A model generated the notes under the pieces. That model made no database searches. It was not told where the DNA came from and was given only the letters and a program-made list of their open reading frames with translations. The position numbers and the translations under genes were made by a program. DNA of 17,815 nt, from the NCBI GenBank assembly GCA_001821395.1, contig MHLM01000011.1, positions 1-17,815 of the forward strand, read 5' to 3'. Within the stretch, counting starts at the first letter, position 1; each line of letters starts with the position of its first letter. Shown here piece by piece: positions 8,853 through 15,987 of the stretch. This stretch comes from Candidatus Lloydbacteria bacterium RIFCSPHIGHO2_02_FULL_50_18. Its GTDB lineage: Bacteria > Patescibacteriota > Minisyncoccia > Phycocordibacterales > UBA6899.

Positions 8853-8984
8853 GGATTTTCCCCTCTTGAAAGGCACACAGTCGGCCCCTCCTGCGGGGGC
8901 CGCTGCCACTCTCGGCCAATTGCCCCATAAGAATGGGGGCCAAGCCAATTGTCCTGCGAGAGTCCTTTCAAGAGGAGAAAATCC
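8853..8984. repeat. Highly structured 132-bp element with 21-bp terminal inverted repeats (one mismatch), sitting between two convergent genes
   Basis: GGATTTTCCCCTCTTGAAAGG (8853-8873) is the reverse complement of CCTTTCAAGAGGAGAAAATCC (8964-8984) apart from one mismatch. Inside are hairpin CGGCCCC / GGGGCCG (8882-8902), outer stem CTCTCG / CGAGAG (8910-8915 with 8957-8962), hairpin GCCCC / GGGGC (8922-8940) and a direct repeat CCAATTG (8917-8923 and 8945-8951). Confidence 0.6.
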
Positions 8985-9048
8985 TCGCTCACGAGGAGTT
9001 GGAGTTTTGGGTGTCATTCAGAATGAAGTCAGAACTTGGGATAGCTAT

Positions 9049-10257
9049 CTACGAGGGCTTCTGATACAGAGCGAATGTTTCTTTTGCCATGTGTGCAATG
9101 CTGAAACGATCACGGATCCGCTCCTTGAGTGTGCGGCCGAGCTCGGCGCACCGCTCTTTGTTGTCGATAAGATAAGTGATCGCTCTTGCCACCTCGCTCC
9201 CGTTTCGCGATTGAATGAGAATTCCGCTCTCCATGTCGTCGATGATCTCGGGAATTCCGCCGACAGCGGTAGCGATGACGGGAAGCCCTGCGTTGCCCGC
9301 TTCGAGGATGACATAAGGAAATGCCTCGGTGATCGACGGGAGAAGAAAAATATCGAACGCCGAGAGGAGCGTGGCGGCATTTTCTTTACGTCCTGCGATA
9401 AAGACCGAGTCGCCCAGTTCATATTTTTTCACGGACGCTTCAATGGCCGTACGTTCGGAGCCTTCTTCTCCGATCATGACGAATATCAACCGATCGTTTG
9501 GACGTTGTTTTTTGAGTAGCGCCATTCCCTCGACGGCATAGATAAGTCCCTTGCTCTTATGCAGTTCAGCAATAGTACCGATGATCGCCAGTGGTGGGGG
9601 GGTAAGGAATTGTTCTTTGTGTTCCCTAAAGATCATGTTGCACGCCTCTTCTTTTGGGAGTGTCGCGATCGGATCCCTTCCATTGTGAATCACGTGGAGT
9701 TTGTGCCAAACGAACGGAAGTATGCCCACTTGATCGCGCGTGCGTTTTGATACAGCGATCGTTACGTGTGCAAGCTCTATTGTGAGCCAATGGAATATAC
9801 CGATCACGAAGCGCTCGAGGTCGCTGCGCTCCTCGTTCCATGCCCAGCCGTGACCCGTGAAAACAATGCGCATGGTCTTTTGTTTGCTGGCGAATGGTCG
9901 CGTGAGATGCCACCAGCCATTCACGAGGCGTGCGGCGAGCGCACCAAGCCCGCCCATTTTTGAACTATTGAGATGAACGATATCGGGCTTCTCTCGGTGA
10001 AATAATGTGATCAGAAAAAAGAAGCTCTGGAGGTCAGACAGTATTTTCACATCCCGTCCCAACGTATCGATGGGAATCGTTCGGATGGATTGCTGCTCCA
10101 GGTATGTTTTTAGCATACCGTTTCCACCGAACACGACCACTACCTCGTGCCCCGCTTTGGTTGCCTCGGTCGCAAGATCAAAGACGTAGCGTTGCGCCCC
10201 GCCAAAGTTCGATTTCGTGATGAGGTATAAAATTTTCAGTTTGGGAGAATTTTCCAT
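9049..10257 (-). CDS. Glycosyltransferase family 1 (GT4-type)
   Basis: N-terminal KILYLITKSNFGGAQRY. C-terminal GT1 motif EAFPYVILEAGNAGLPVIATAVGGIPEII. The ATG at 10257 is preferred over the TTG at 10266 used by the ORF track. Confidence 0.85.
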   Translation of the reverse strand: MENSPKLKILYLITKSNFGGAQRYVFDLATEATKAGHEVVVVFGGNGMLKTYLEQQSIRTIPIDTLGRDVKILSDLQSFFFLITLFHREKPDIVHLNSSKMGGLGALAARLVNGWWHLTRPFASKQKTMRIVFTGHGWAWNEERSDLERFVIGIFHWLTIELAHVTIAVSKRTRDQVGILPFVWHKLHVIHNGRDPIATLPKEEACNMIFREHKEQFLTPPPLAIIGTIAELHKSKGLIYAVEGMALLKKQRPNDRLIFVMIGEEGSERTAIEASVKKYELGDSVFIAGRKENAATLLSAFDIFLLPSITEAFPYVILEAGNAGLPVIATAVGGIPEIIDDMESGILIQSRNGSEVARAITYLIDNKERCAELGRTLKERIRDRFSIAHMAKETFALYQKPS

Positions 10258-10266
10258 GATGGGCAA

Positions 10267-11866: not shown

Positions 11867-11883
11867 TAACACTTATTGCGCTT

Positions 11884-11931
11884 AGGGGCCGTTCACTAAT
11901 AACATGATAGTTATTCGTGATTACGGCCCCT
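11884..11931 (+). terminator. Extended imperfect hairpin downstream of the sugar-transferase gene (putative terminator, no clear U-run)
   Basis: AGGGGCCGT (11884-11892) pairs with ACGGCCCCT (11923-11931). The loop has internal partial pairing (ACTAATAAC / GTTATTCGT). Confidence 0.35.
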
Positions 11932-11995
11932 TGTGCCACGGCCATATCTATCCACTTATTAATGGATGAGGCCTTAGGGTATATACTTACTAACA

Positions 11996-13567: not shown

Positions 13568-13589
13568 AAAAAGGTGTCAGGTACCTTTT
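13568..13589 (+). repeat. REP-like hairpin element, copy 1; also positioned as a terminator for the upstream gene
   Basis: AAAAAGGT / GTCAGGT / ACCTTTT. It is the exact reverse complement of 14282-14303. Confidence 0.65.
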
Positions 13590-13619
13590 ATTGTATATTT
13601 TTTTTGTTATACTTTATTT

Positions 13620-14294
13620 ATGCCCCGCGCCCCACGTGTTGATGTTGGTAATGAAGTGTATCACGTGATCAATCGTGCCAATAATCGTGCACAGATTTTT
13701 AATAATGAAAAAGAGTATCAACACTTCGAGAGACTATTGAAAGAAGCAAAAGTCCACGTGCCCATGCGAATTCTTGCATATGTGCTCATGCCAAATCATT
13801 GGCACCTAGTTCTTCATCCGGAGAATGATGGAGATTTAGCGTTATTTATGCAGTGGCTTACTTTGACGCATGCGCAGCAATATCGTGCAAAAACAAAAAC
13901 GATCGGTCATGGTCATCTCTATCAGGGAAGATACAAATCTTTTCTTGTGGAAAAAGATAACTACCTTATCCAATTGCTGCGTTATGTTGAGCGGAATCCT
14001 CATCGCGCCAAGCTCGTGAAGCGGGCAGAAGACTGGAGGTGGGGAAGTGCGTGGCGCAGATATCATGGAACAAGCAAAGAGCAGCAGCTTCTCCATGTTC
14101 CACCAATTGACCTCCCGCGAGGATACCGTGCGTGGCTTAATGAAAAAGAAGAAGTAGAACAATTGGTCACAATTCGCAATTCAGTAAATAGGGGGCGACC
14201 ACTTGGGACTGAAGGTTGGACTGGAAAGAAAATAACACAGTTTGGATTGGCGTTGACGATGCGCTCTCGCGGGAGACCAAAAAAAGGTACCTGA
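13620..14294 (+). CDS. HUH-Y1 tyrosine transposase of the IS200/IS605 TnpA / REP-associated tyrosine transposase (RAYT) type, with a roughly 70-aa C-terminal extension
   Basis: The HUH motif is MPNHWHLVL. The catalytic Tyr sits in HLYQGRYKSF. Other family blocks are YHVINRANNR and RYVERNPHRAKLV. The gene is flanked by inverted 22-nt hairpin repeats. Confidence 0.8.
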   Translation: MPRAPRVDVGNEVYHVINRANNRAQIFNNEKEYQHFERLLKEAKVHVPMRILAYVLMPNHWHLVLHPENDGDLALFMQWLTLTHAQQYRAKTKTIGHGHLYQGRYKSFLVEKDNYLIQLLRYVERNPHRAKLVKRAEDWRWGSAWRRYHGTSKEQQLLHVPPIDLPRGYRAWLNEKEEVEQLVTIRNSVNRGRPLGTEGWTGKKITQFGLALTMRSRGRPKKGT

Positions 14295-14303
14295 CACCTT
14301 TTT
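14282..14303 (+). repeat. REP-like hairpin element, copy 2 (inverted); it overlaps the transposase stop codon and serves as its terminator
   Basis: AAAAGGT / ACCTGAC / ACCTTTTT is the exact reverse complement of 13568-13589. A T-run follows. Confidence 0.65.
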
Positions 14304-14796: not shown

Positions 14797-15987
14797 ATGA
14801 AAGACAAATTAATTCAAAAACTCATTATCAAAGAAGAAAAGCGCGAACAGTCGGTCATCAACCTTATCGCTTCCGAGAATTTTGTTTCAGACGATGTACG
14901 GCAGGCGCTTGGTTCAGTATTCACCAATAAATATGCCGAAGGGTATCCGGGTCGCCGCTACTACGGCGGCAACAGTGTCGTTGATGAGCTCGAACTACTG
15001 ACTCAAGAGCGCGCACTCAAACTTTTTAAACTTTCATCGTCAAAGTGGCACGTGAATGTGCAGGCGCTTTCCGGGTCACCGGCGAATATGGCTGTCTATT
15101 TGGCACTATTGCCTCTCGACGGTTCGGGGAAGATCATGGGCATGCAGCTCGCGCATGGCGGACATCTGACGCATGGACACTCAGTTTCCGCGTCAGGAAA
15201 ATTTTGGAAACAAATTTCGTATGGCGTGTCAGAAAAAACAGAGCGCATTGATTTTGATGAGTTGATGAAGATCGCGAAGAAAGAAAAGCCGCACATCATT
15301 GTTGCGGGATTCACGGCCTATCCGCGCAAGATCGAATGGAAAAAATTTCGCGCCGTAGCCGATGCGGTCGGAGCGTATCTCATGGTCGACATGTCACACA
15401 TCGCGGGGCTTGTCGCCGGAGGTGCACATGCATCGCCATTCCCGTATGCCGACATCGTGACGACGACGACGCACAAAACATTGCGTGGCCCTCGTGGGGC
15501 GATGATCTTCGTGAAAAAAGACCTGCCTGCGCAGGCAGGTGTGCGTGACCTACCGAGCAAAATTGATAAGGCGGTCTTTCCGGGACTGCAGGGCGGCCCG
15601 CATGAGAATGCGATCGCCGGTATCGCCGTTGCGCTTCACGAAGCAGCGCAGCCGGCATTCAAAAAATACGCCGAACAGGTAGTAAAGAATGCGAGCGCAC
15701 TTGCGGGAGAACTCGCGCTGCTCGGTTGGCGCATTGTTTCCGGTGGCACCGACAATCATCTGATGCTCGTCGATACATGGGCGAATGGCATTTCGGGCAA
15801 AGAGGCGAGTGATCGTCTCGAGATTGCGGGGATCATCGTGAACATGAATACCATACCGAATGATACGCGTAAGCCGATGGATCCTTCAGGTATTCGCATC
15901 GGAACGGCGGCTGAAACGACGCGTGGTGCAAAGGAGCGCGATATGGTTGAGCTGGCATACGTGATAGACGCGGTGCTACGCGGATAA
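14797..15987 (+). CDS. glyA: Serine hydroxymethyltransferase
   Basis: Conserved blocks LIASENFVS, YAEGYPGRRYYGG and HGGHLTHG, plus the PLP-Lys region TTTTHKTLRGPRGAMIF. Confidence 0.9.
   Translation: MKDKLIQKLIIKEEKREQSVINLIASENFVSDDVRQALGSVFTNKYAEGYPGRRYYGGNSVVDELELLTQERALKLFKLSSSKWHVNVQALSGSPANMAVYLALLPLDGSGKIMGMQLAHGGHLTHGHSVSASGKFWKQISYGVSEKTERIDFDELMKIAKKEKPHIIVAGFTAYPRKIEWKKFRAVADAVGAYLMVDMSHIAGLVAGGAHASPFPYADIVTTTTHKTLRGPRGAMIFVKKDLPAQAGVRDLPSKIDKAVFPGLQGGPHENAIAGIAVALHEAAQPAFKKYAEQVVKNASALAGELALLGWRIVSGGTDNHLMLVDTWANGISGKEASDRLEIAGIIVNMNTIPNDTRKPMDPSGIRIGTAAETTRGAKERDMVELAYVIDAVLRG

What the first reader, a model, noticed from the sequence alone, without database searches (positions are those of the whole stretch)
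8853..8984. A 132-bp nested-hairpin element with 21-bp terminal inverted repeats between the convergent lnt and GT1 genes
Outer arms GGATTTTCCCCTCTTGAAAGG and CCTTTCAAGAGGAGAAAATCC (one mismatch) enclose two GC-rich hairpins (CGGCCCC/GGGGCCG and GCCCC/GGGGC) and an internal 6-bp closing stem. They also carry a 7-bp direct repeat, CCAATTG. The architecture of terminal inverted repeats plus a structured core, sited in a convergent intergenic region, fits a MITE-like mobile element, a structured small RNA, or an unusually elaborate bidirectional terminator. A single mismatch in a 21-bp arm suggests either recent origin or selection for pairing.
Basis: seen in the sequence. Interest (0 to 1): 0.55.

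Follow-up and report, generated by a model that had tools for sequence, protein, structure and literature searches.

The report
Small hopping hairpin element after stop codons
The 132-base inverted repeat is real: it is the core of a roughly 145-base foldback element that sits directly after the stop codons of three different genes in three related groundwater Parcubacteria, keeps its shape through many compensating mutations, and matches no described RNA family or repeat, though how it moves and what it does are still inferred.

Summary
The arms at 8853-8873 and 8964-8984 pair at 20 of 21 positions, and both strands fold far better than shuffled sequence (z about -6.4 and -6.6).

The element is not a one-off. 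Related copies follow the stop codons of prx (L020/L021) and ftsW (L007) in two related Parcubacteria. The window organism is a Candidatus Lloydbacteria.

Orthologous sites in close relatives are empty:
- lnt: L006, L018 and L019
- prx: L027
- ftsW: the window itself and L006

Across the three copies, 27 of 48 base pairs changed on both sides and still pair. Several unpaired motifs stay constant: CGCTC at both ends, the CCUGC loop, a second CCUGY, and the RCCRAGC bulge.

All three copies share the orientation of the upstream gene, which always ends in ATA plus TAA or TAG. All are flanked by YCGCTC / TCGCTY.

Nothing matched in Rfam, 185,579 species genomes, plasmids, phages or viral contigs.

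Best reading (about 0.5): a new family of non-autonomous, site-specific mobile hairpin elements, similar to REPINs, PATEs or MITEs, that also gives the upstream mRNA a very stable 3' structure.

Main rival (about 0.25): a functional 3'-UTR RNA.

Copy number per genome, the mobilising enzyme and the active strand were not determined.

The parts
8840..8845 (+). ATATAA: the last Ile codon (ATA) plus the stop codon of lnt. This is the conserved left context of every copy and the putative insertion target.
   Evidence: All three copies follow ATATAA or ATATAG. Only 8 of 86 genes in the sampled loci end this way, 3 of them being the element-bearing genes. Empty lnt orthologs end ATT TAA, ATT TAG or ATC TAA.
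8847..8852 (+). CCGCTC: left flanking direct repeat. It is either a target-site duplication or the element's terminal motif.
   Evidence: The left flank is CGCTC in all three copies. The right flank is CGCTC in the window and L007 and CGCTT in L020 (alignments A4 and A8).
8853..8873 (+). P1 5' arm, the left terminal inverted repeat.
   Evidence: 14 of 21 P1 pairs changed on both sides across the copies.
8874..8877 (+). Junction CACA between P1 and P2.
   Evidence: Folds. It reads CAAC in L007.
8878..8905 (+). P2 side hairpin (CAG-T-CGGCCCCT / GGGGGCCG-CTG) with the conserved loop CCUGC closed by a U.G pair.
   Evidence: The loop is invariant in three copies while 6 of 11 stem pairs covary.
8908..8915 (+). 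P1b/P1c 5' strand: ACTCTCG plus G.
8917..8922 (+).
   Evidence: It pairs with 8946-8951. 5 of the 8 pairs in this helix (P1c and P3 together) covary.
8923..8938 (+). P4 apical hairpin: CCCCAT, loop AAGA, ATGGGG.
   Evidence: L020 has CCCACTT-CGGA-AAGTGGG. L007 has a longer hairpin at the same place.
8939..8945 (+). Conserved 7-nt bulge GCCAAGC (consensus RCCRAGC).
   Evidence: It is partly complementary to the 5' flank GCUCGG: 6 of 6 positions in L007, 5 of 6 here (seen directly in the sequence).
8946..8963 (+). 3' strands of P3, P1c and P1b, with the second conserved CCUGY motif (TCCTGCG at 8952-8958).
   Evidence: Direct repeat D11. The motif is present twice in every copy.
8964..8984 (+). 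P1 3' arm, the right terminal inverted repeat.
   Evidence: Its single mismatch is C.A on the + strand, which is G.U on the - strand.
8985..8990 (+). TCGCTC: right flanking direct repeat.
8991..9048 (+). G/T-rich right-hand module plus tail, filling the rest of the lineage-specific spacer up to the stop codon of the glycosyltransferase gene.
   Evidence: It is significantly similar to the sequence right of the L007 copy (2 of 500 shuffles) and to window 7303-7378 (1 of 500). It is absent from L020. The whole spacer is absent in L006 and L018.
7299..7345 (+). Solo copy of TCGCTC plus the G/T-rich module, without the hairpin, in the ftsW-lnt spacer. It looks like an unoccupied or vacated site.
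   Evidence: L007-right versus this stretch: 0 of 500 shuffles. The covariance model finds no hairpin copy here. L007 carries the full hairpin at the orthologous ftsW site.

Best explanation
The 132-bp repeat is the core of a roughly 145-nt non-coding, non-autonomous mobile element (8847-8990) that belongs to a small family in a clade of Parcubacteria (Candidatus Lloydbacteria and relatives).

Shown:
- It occurs at three non-orthologous sites in three related genomes, while the orthologous sites in close relatives are empty.
- It always lies in the orientation of the upstream gene, 6-7 nt after a stop codon in the context ATA-TAR.
- It is bounded by YCGCTC ... TCGCTY.
- Its four helices (P1 to P4) are kept by compensatory substitutions, while short unpaired motifs stay constant.

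Inferred:
- It moves as a folded single strand, or is recognised as a hairpin, by an enzyme supplied in trans. A HUH/Y1-type transposase of the IS200/IS605-RAYT kind is the most natural candidate.
- It inserts in one orientation next to ATATAR. That hexamer often coincides with a terminal Ile codon plus the stop codon, so insertions there leave the gene intact and survive.
- The conserved CGCTC ends, the two CCUGYG motifs and the RCCRAGC bulge would be the recognition or cleavage determinants.
- Once inserted it is transcribed with the upstream gene. Its structure (about -73 kcal/mol, with a 21-bp perfect duplex) then forms a barrier at the 3' end of the mRNA, blocking 3' exonucleases, serving as a possible RNase III substrate, and insulating lnt from the convergent glycosyltransferase gene, whose stop codons overlap in the relatives L006 and L018.
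For: Structure above chance.

Second copy, L020/L021, directly after prx: 82% identical overall, a 50-nt core 100% identical, outer-stem differences all compensated.

Third copy, L007 8629-8790, directly after ftsW: found by covariance model (58.7 bits with the two-sequence model, E about 1e-13). It folds on its own into the same architecture.

Covariation over three copies: 27 of 48 pairs changed on both sides, 95% of cells paired, 0 of 500 shuffles reached this, and slid controls gave 2-6 pairs.

Empty orthologous sites:
- lnt: stop codons overlap in L006 (86% Lnt identity) and L018 (80%); 13-nt spacer in L019.
- prx: L027, which has a classic terminator instead.
- ftsW: the window and L006.

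Element similarity is decoupled from host similarity. Elements: window-L020 82%, window-L007 about 50%. Housekeeping genes: 67-72% nt between L021 and L027, and 70-80% between the window and L007. By Prx, L020's host is closer to L007's host (82%) than to Lloydbacteria (72%).

ATATAR context in 3 of 3 copies, against 5 of the other 83 genes.

G.U pairs are not favoured over A.C in the helices: 1 non-loop G.U against 3 A.C. This fits a constraint felt by both strands, that is, DNA.

A Y1_Tnp gene lies 4.6 kb away in the window. Its best match is the REP-associated tyrosine transposase family (73.5 bits, cutoff 80).
Against: - Only one copy was seen per genome sampled. None turned up in a further roughly 20 kb of the likely same organism (L027) or in about 20 kb around the other two copies. 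Multi-copy status, the hallmark of MITEs and REPINs, is therefore unproven.
- The flanking CGCTC repeat is the same in every copy and is not present at empty sites, so it may be part of the element rather than a target duplication.
- The Y1 gene's own flanking repeats (AAAAGGTGTCAGGTACCTTTT) are unrelated to the element. No Y1 gene lies near the L007 or L021 copies.
- Conserved loops with covarying stems and a fixed orientation behind genes are equally what a functional RNA would show.
- There are only three sequences, effectively one long and one short branch.
Confidence: 0.5

Rival explanations
1. It is a functional structured RNA: a cis-acting 3'-UTR element or a 3'-UTR-derived small RNA. 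Its conserved loops bind a protein or another RNA. Its placement 6-7 nt after the stop codon is part of its function, for example ribosome stalling or termination control, RNase III processing, or mRNA stabilisation. It appears at different genes because the module is occasionally copied by recombination.
For: - Strong covariation in all helices with invariant loop and bulge nucleotides.
- 3 of 3 copies lie in the sense orientation of an upstream gene at a fixed distance from the stop codon.
- In L020 the element is followed about 30 nt later by a normal intrinsic terminator, so it would lie inside the prx transcript.
- The core is more conserved (50 nt at 100%) than host coding DNA (67-72%).
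Against: - No Rfam family matches at E up to 10.
- There is no excess of G.U over A.C in the helices, unlike typical RNAs.
- The three host genes (lnt, prx, ftsW) share no function.
- Presence/absence between genomes 80-89% identical in the neighbouring protein needs a mobility mechanism anyway.
- The terminal inverted repeats and flanking direct repeats are features of mobile DNA.
Confidence: 0.25
2. It is simply an elaborate bidirectional transcription terminator or insulator that evolved in place between the convergent lnt and glycosyltransferase genes.
For: - It sits between convergent genes in the window and in L007.
- The structure is very stable on both strands.
- One terminator-like junction hairpin (8997-8982) followed by TTTTCTCC exists on the - strand.
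Against: - No U-tract follows the structure on the + strand, and none was found in L007.
- The junction hairpin's U-run is not conserved in L007 or L020.
- In L020 the next gene is co-directional and a separate canonical terminator is present.
- Homologous copies at unrelated loci and conserved loops are not expected of a terminator that evolved in place.
- Relatives manage with overlapping stop codons.
Confidence: 0.07
3. It is the cognate REPIN of the neighbouring RAYT-like Y1 transposase (13620-14294). On this reading it is a member of a high-copy REP family of this genome.
For: - A Y1_Tnp gene with its best hit to NF047646, REP-associated tyrosine transposase.
- The gene is absent at that position in L007.
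- The element is an inverted doublet that folds as ssDNA.
- REPINs are defined as inverted REP doublets forming hairpins (PMC3116915).
Against: - RAYT genes are flanked by their own REPs. Here the flanks are a different 21-mer that occurs nowhere else in the window.
- The arms are not themselves palindromic REPs.
- The Y1 score is below the family cutoff (73.5 against 80).
- No further copy was found in about 41 kb.
- The two other element-bearing loci have no Y1 gene within 10 kb.
Confidence: 0.1

Closest known systems
REPINs (REP doublets forming hairpins) mobilised by RAYT/TnpA-REP Y1 transposases
   Same: Two inverted arms plus a spacer fold into a long hairpin in ssDNA or RNA. The element is extragenic and usually sits just after genes. 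It is non-coding, and pairing is maintained. A RAYT-like gene is present in the same window.
   Different: No evidence of tens to hundreds of copies. The arms are not themselves palindromic REPs. The Y1 gene is flanked by a different repeat. The element has a branched structure with conserved loops. It sits in a specific ATATAR and stop-codon context.
IS200/IS605-derived miniature elements (PATEs) and the IS200/IS605 insertion mode
   Same: Insertion is orientation-specific and immediately 3' of a short specific sequence. Recognition is of hairpins rather than of terminal repeat sequence. An internal sequence (RCCRAGC) is complementary to the terminal flank (GCTCGG), reminiscent of guide and cleavage-site pairing.
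   Different: IS200/IS605 ends carry two similar subterminal hairpins and no terminal inverted repeats. Here a 21-bp terminal duplex encloses two dissimilar hairpins. No TnpA or TnpB partner with matching ends was found.
Correia repeat enclosed elements (CREE/NEMIS) of Neisseria, and similar bacterial MITEs (ERIC, RUP, BOX)
   Same: 100-155 bp with terminal inverted repeats of about 20-26 bp. They sit in intergenic sites next to genes and are co-transcribed. The hairpin is a substrate for or protected by RNase III and changes expression of neighbouring genes (PMC2649163). Presence/absence differs between strains.
   Different: No sequence similarity. Correia terminal repeats are conserved in sequence and present in hundreds of copies with a TA duplication. 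Here the terminal repeat sequence drifts while pairing is kept, and copy number appears low.
Retron msr-msd non-coding RNA (architecture only)
   Same: Terminal a1/a2-like duplex enclosing a short side hairpin and a long hairpin.
   Different: No reverse transcriptase gene is adjacent in any of the three loci.

Membership tests
Classical MITE (DDE-transposase dependent) | Terminal inverted repeats | tested here: met
   21-bp arms with 1 mismatch. Perfect in L020.
Classical MITE (DDE-transposase dependent) | Target-site duplication that differs from site to site | tested here: inconclusive
   A 5-6-bp direct repeat YCGCTC/TCGCTY flanks all three copies, but it is the same sequence each time and is absent from empty sites. 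A solo TCGCTC site at 7299 looks unoccupied.
Classical MITE (DDE-transposase dependent) | Terminal repeat sequence conserved among copies and shared with a parent IS | tested here: not met
   Only 5 of 21 arm positions are invariant, and pairing is kept by double changes. No IS with such ends appears in any locus. The IS3 in L020/L021 was not seen to share these ends, though its ends were not compared directly.
Classical MITE (DDE-transposase dependent) | Multiple dispersed copies within one genome | not testable with these tools
   The host genome is not in the scannable collections. Only about 41 kb of the same or a sister genome was reachable, with one copy.
REPIN / REP-RAYT system | RAYT gene flanked by the same REP sequence as the dispersed elements | tested here: not met
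   The Y1 gene flanks are AAAAGGTGTCAGGTACCTTTT in inverted orientation, unrelated to the element.
REPIN / REP-RAYT system | Inverted doublet that folds as a hairpin in ssDNA or RNA | tested here: met
REPIN / REP-RAYT system | High copy number (tens to hundreds per genome) | not testable with these tools
   Same limitation as for MITE copy number. No second copy was found in the sequence available.
IS200/IS605-type (Y1 HUH) mobilisation | Orientation-specific insertion 3' of a short specific sequence | tested here: met
   3 of 3 copies lie directly after ATATAR in the same orientation. The background is 5 of 83 other gene ends.
IS200/IS605-type (Y1 HUH) mobilisation | Cognate Y1 transposase that binds or cleaves the element's hairpins | not testable with these tools
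   A Y1_Tnp gene exists in the window, but no sequence link to the element was found.
Intrinsic (Rho-independent) terminator | GC-rich stem immediately followed by a U-tract on the transcribed strand | tested here: not met
   No site after the element on the + strand. There is one small junction hairpin on the - strand in the window only. L020 has a separate terminator.
Any Rfam 15 RNA family | Covariance-model score at or near the gathering threshold | tested here: not met
   Nothing above 19 bits against thresholds of 35-100 for all three copies.
Integron attC site | R''/R' core sites (RYYYAAC ... GTTRRRY) at the ends, in an integron with IntI | tested here: not met
   The ends are CGCTCGG ... 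CCTCGCT. No GTTRRRY core is visible on inspection, and no integrase is adjacent in the window or L007.
Retron ncRNA | Adjacent reverse-transcriptase gene | tested here: not met
   No RT domain appears in the gene tables of the three loci.

The most novel reading that the evidence does not exclude
The element is a new class of structured nucleic-acid mobile element. Its invariant loops would be the active or recognition sites of a so far undescribed mobilisation system: the CCUGC hairpin loop, the second CCUGY, the RCCRAGC bulge complementary to the CGCUCGG terminus, and the CGCTC ends. One possibility is a hairpin-loop nick site for a HUH enzyme with guide-like internal pairing. Another is an RNA that itself promotes its own insertion or processing. 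Either way it homes precisely to the Ile-stop junction (ATA-TAR) of genes in ultra-small CPR genomes.
Probability: 0.15. Interest if true: 0.8.

Novelty: new variant of a known kind. Interest (0 to 1): 0.5.

Why it matters
CPR/Patescibacteria genomes are tiny and are thought to be poor in repeats and regulatory RNA. Here a compact element can be seen gained or lost between near relatives. It lands exactly at the stop codon of intact housekeeping genes and is held in shape by selection. It would therefore be a tractable marker of recent DNA mobility in organisms that cannot be cultured.

If the conserved loops prove to be enzyme recognition sites, it would define a new pairing between a transposase and its substrate. 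If it acts at the RNA level, it would be one of the first 3'-UTR regulatory structures known in this radiation.

For annotation, it explains a 203-nt gap in the window between two genes whose stop codons overlap in the relatives L006 and L018.

Tried and rejected
1. Exact scans with the 21-mer arm (GGATTTTCNCCTCTTGAAAGG) found nothing in genome contigs or metagenome contigs. Not even the source contig was found, so the host genome is not in those collections.
2. blastn of the spacer against plasmids and phages gave no match.
3. Viral contigs gave nothing real. The translated element had no confirmed hit. The exact core had none. A structured pattern gave 24 hits, about the number expected by chance, and none was confirmed by the covariance model.
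4. The translated-element search of 185,579 species genomes produced 599 seed matches, none confirmed.
5. Searching the protein database with all six reading frames of two copies, hoping for spurious ORF calls across other copies, returned nothing at E up to 1.
6. Walking along the host genome through neighbouring proteins failed. All assemblies break at the rRNA operon on the left and about 450 nt past the PAP2 gene on the right.
7. A long target duplication of the lnt 3' end (8817-8845 against 9020-9048, 17 of 29 identical) was not significant by local alignment.
8. A degenerate copy behind prx in L025 gave a weak model hit. E was 0.0025 locally and 0.69 in the wide search. There is a P2-like hairpin with loop CCAGC, but no overall fold (z -2.5). 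I treat it as a possible remnant only.
9. No decayed hairpin copy was found in the window's ftsW-lnt spacer. Only the right-hand module is there.
10. Strand assignment from G.U against A.C pairs was uninformative.
11. A sigma-70 promoter upstream of the element was not found in L020 or the window, although ATATAA/TATAAT resembles a -10 box.
12. CRISPR repeat, attC, retron, riboswitch and known self-cleaving ribozyme readings were rejected for lack of their defining parts.

Full report
**Observation**

The inverted repeat is present exactly as described. The arms are 8853-8873 and 8964-8984, 21 nt each, with one mismatch and 90 nt between them. The 21-mer, allowing up to 3 mismatches, occurs nowhere else in the window, and no shuffle gave two matches.

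The 144-150-nt stretch folds into one dominant structure on either strand. The + strand gives -73.2 kcal/mol (z -6.4) and the - strand -82.5 kcal/mol (z -6.6). The same fold appears with DNA parameters.

The architecture is a long rod with one side hairpin:
- P1, 21 bp, stacked on ACTCTCG/CGAGAGT.
- P3, CAATTG/CAATTG.
- P4, CCCCAT-AAGA-ATGGGG, at the apex.
- P2, CGGCCCCU-CCUGC-GGGGGCCG, as the side hairpin.

The flanking genes are lnt (7379-8845, +) and a GT4-family glycosyltransferase (9049-10266, -).

**Where the window comes from**

The Lnt protein is found on contigs from several groundwater assemblies, including GCA_001818945.1. The source names it Candidatus Lloydbacteria, a Parcubacteria/CPR lineage. 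Five independent assemblies carry an identical spacer.

**The spacer is lineage-specific**

- In the closest relative, L006 (Lnt 86% identical), and in L018 (80%), the stop codons of lnt and the glycosyltransferase gene overlap.
- In L019 (66%) they are 13 nt apart.
- In L007 (79%) a HIT-family gene sits between them.

All 203 nt between the two stop codons (8846-9048) are therefore new in the window's lineage.

**It is a family**

Exact-pattern scans with the arm found nothing, and the host genome is evidently not in the scannable collections. A fuzzy search using the translated element found one relative in a 200-kb metagenome contig (L020, the same place as L021 on a 352-kb contig).

That copy lies directly after the stop codon of a peroxiredoxin gene. 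Its features:
- A 50-nt core, from the inner end of P1 through P2 to the start of P3, is 100% identical.
- The outer stem differs at 5 of 21 positions. Four changed on both arms, and the fifth turns the window's C.A mismatch into U-A, so the L020 stem pairs perfectly.
- P4 is rebuilt as CCCACUU-CGGA-AAGUGGG.

A covariance model built from the two copies then found a third, much more diverged copy in L007 (the Parcubacteria GW2011_GWA2_47_7 lineage). It lies directly after the ftsW stop codon and is convergent with a phosphatase gene (58.7 bits, E about 1e-13). That copy folds on its own into the same architecture.

**Covariation**

On the three-sequence alignment, 27 of 48 pairs changed on both sides while staying paired:

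| Helix | Pairs changed on both sides |
|---|---|
| P1 | 14 of 21 |
| P2 | 6 of 11 |
| P1c plus P3 | 5 of 8 |

Overall, 95% of cells are paired and no shuffle of 500 reaches this. Sliding the partners by 1-3 columns leaves only 2-6 such pairs.

Two caveats apply. The alignment was fitted to the model, and three sequences amount to one long and one short branch. The independent fold of L007 argues that the result is not circular.

**Conserved unpaired positions**

The following do not vary:
- CGCUCGG at the 5' border and CCUCGCU at the 3' border.
- The P2 loop, U-CCUGC-G.
- A second CCUGY on the 3' side.
- The 7-nt bulge RCCRAGC. This bulge is complementary to the 5' GCUCGG, at 6 of 6 positions in L007 and 5 of 6 here.

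**Insertion context**

All three copies share these features:
- They have the orientation of the upstream gene.
- They start 6-7 nt after its stop codon.
- They follow the hexamer ATATAA or ATATAG, which is an Ile ATA codon plus the stop.

Orthologs without the element also end in Ile plus a stop. The lnt and ftsW orthologs use other Ile codons (ATT or ATC) and stops that include TGA; the two empty prx sites already read ATATAG. Only 8 of 86 genes in the sampled loci end in ATATAR, and three of those are the element-bearing genes.

Empty orthologous sites exist for all three positions. For prx the site is L027, a Lloydbacteria contig from the same samples as the window, where a classic terminator sits instead. 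For ftsW the sites are the window and L006.

**Borders and a second module**

YCGCTC on the left and TCGCTY on the right flank every copy. Because the sequence is the same each time and is missing from empty sites, it could be a specific duplicated target or part of the element.

To the right, the window and L007 copies share a further G/T-rich stretch of about 40-60 nt (8991-9048). L020 lacks it. The same module, preceded by a single TCGCTC and without any hairpin, lies in the window's own ftsW-lnt spacer (7299-7345). That is the locus where L007 has the full element. It looks like an unoccupied or vacated site and is the best hint that the hairpin inserts at TCGCTC.

**Element history versus host history**

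| Comparison | Element identity | Host similarity |
|---|---|---|
| Window vs L020 | 82% | 67-72% nt in housekeeping genes (L027 vs L021) |
| Window vs L007 | about 50% | 70-80% nt in most genes |

The element identities are and the host gene identities. By Prx, L020's host is nearer to L007's host (82%) than to Lloydbacteria (72%). This decoupling fits mobile or horizontally moving subfamilies.

**What it is not**

- No Rfam 15 family comes near threshold for any copy.
- No match in plasmids, phages or viral contigs.
- No relative in 185,579 species genomes at the sensitivity used.
- No U-tract follows the structure on the + strand, and L020 has its own terminator 30 nt further on.
- No reverse transcriptase, integrase or CRISPR array is adjacent.
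- A brief literature search found no description of such an element in CPR bacteria.

**Interpretation**

The combination points to a non-autonomous mobile hairpin element whose fold, rather than its terminal sequence, is what matters. The elements of that combination are terminal inverted repeats, flanking short repeats, a fixed insertion context and orientation, presence/absence between close relatives, and pairing kept by double substitutions with no preference for G.U.

That is how REPINs and IS200/IS605-type elements behave. They move as single-stranded DNA and are handled by HUH/Y1 enzymes; REPINs are defined in PMC3116915.

A RAYT-like Y1 gene lies 4.6 kb away (73.5 bits to NF047646, cutoff 80) and is itself a lineage-specific insertion. 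However, its flanking 21-bp repeats are unrelated to the element, and the other two loci have no Y1 gene nearby. The link is therefore only suggestive.

The survival of insertions exactly at Ile-stop junctions is explained if the target is ATATAR, because there the gene remains intact.

At the RNA level the element must be transcribed with lnt. It would give the mRNA a very stable 3' structure with a 21-bp duplex. By analogy with Correia elements (PMC2649163) and REPs, I infer protection from 3' exonucleases, RNase III sensitivity, and insulation from the convergent gene. From my own knowledge, not checked here, REPs within about 15 nt of a stop codon can also stall terminating ribosomes. None of this is shown here.

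The main rival is that the RNA structure itself is the selected function.

**Limits**

Copy number within a genome, the true borders, the mobilising enzyme and the active strand remain undetermined.

Noticed in passing
window 13569-14302: A 224-aa Y1_Tnp (RAYT-like) gene at 13620-14294 is bracketed by perfect inverted 21-mers AAAAGGTGTCAGGTACCTTTT (13569-13589 on +, 14282-14302 on -). The gene is absent at this position in L007 and L008, so the roughly 735-bp unit looks like a separate insertion.
   Followed up: partly
window 4182-4534: The 353-nt spacer after the AAA_28/CYTH gene is extremely structured (-141 kcal/mol, z -6.9). It has nested long inverted repeats, including a tRNA T-arm-like CTGGTTCGATCCCAGG. 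No tRNA, tmRNA or Rfam family was detected.
   Followed up: partly
window 11878-11980 and L027 13205-13300: A second repeated intergenic hairpin sequence (GGGGCCGT...ACGGCCCC, followed by ACTTATTAATGGATGAGGCCTTA) is about 80% identical between two unrelated gene ends, with compensated stem changes. This appears to be another small element family in these genomes.
   Followed up: partly
window 1-1255; L001 981-3401: The 23S rRNA gene carries an insertion of about 380 nt near model position 2500. Further upstream are two LAGLIDADG endonuclease ORFs, indicating intron-rich CPR rRNA.
   Followed up: no
window 1558-1873: tRNA-Arg(TCG) at 1606-1678 sits between the 23S and 5S rRNA genes. It is enclosed by two nested inverted repeats, 1558-1578/1716-1736 and 1596-1612/1670-1686, probably processing stems.
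   Followed up: no
window 14797-15987 versus L007 15946-17136: SHMT is 98% identical in protein and 93% in DNA between the window and L007, while neighbouring genes are 69-82% identical in protein. This suggests a recent transfer or recombination of that gene.
   Followed up: no
L001, L006, L007, L021, L027 (86 genes): 18 of 86 genes end in an Ile codon, and 8 end in ATATAA or ATATAG. That is an unusually common gene ending.
   Followed up: partly
L025 3125-3291: tRNA-Leu(CAA) at 3210-3291 (-) is faced by an inverted partial copy of its 3' end (GGGTTTTCAAGTCCCGCACCA) about 60 nt away. This resembles an attachment-site scar.
   Followed up: no
L001 20000-20484; L014-L017 ends: Contigs of the window organism from many independent assemblies all break about 450 nt after the PAP2 gene, and at the rRNA operon on the other side. 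This hints at a repeat or hypervariable gene just right of the window.
   Followed up: no
L021 1-7937: Upstream of miaA-prx in the L020/L021 organism lies a mobile and defence island: a large serine recombinase, an AbiJ/AAA_21 protein, and an IS3-family transposase with a frameshifted orfAB.
   Followed up: no
L025 2968-3080: Directly after the prx stop codon (ATATAG) in an 89%-identical relative is a weak match to the element. It has a left-arm-like GGGTTTCTCTACTTGAG and an A/T-rich P2-like hairpin whose loop is CCAGC, but no closing arm. It may be a decayed copy.
   Followed up: partly
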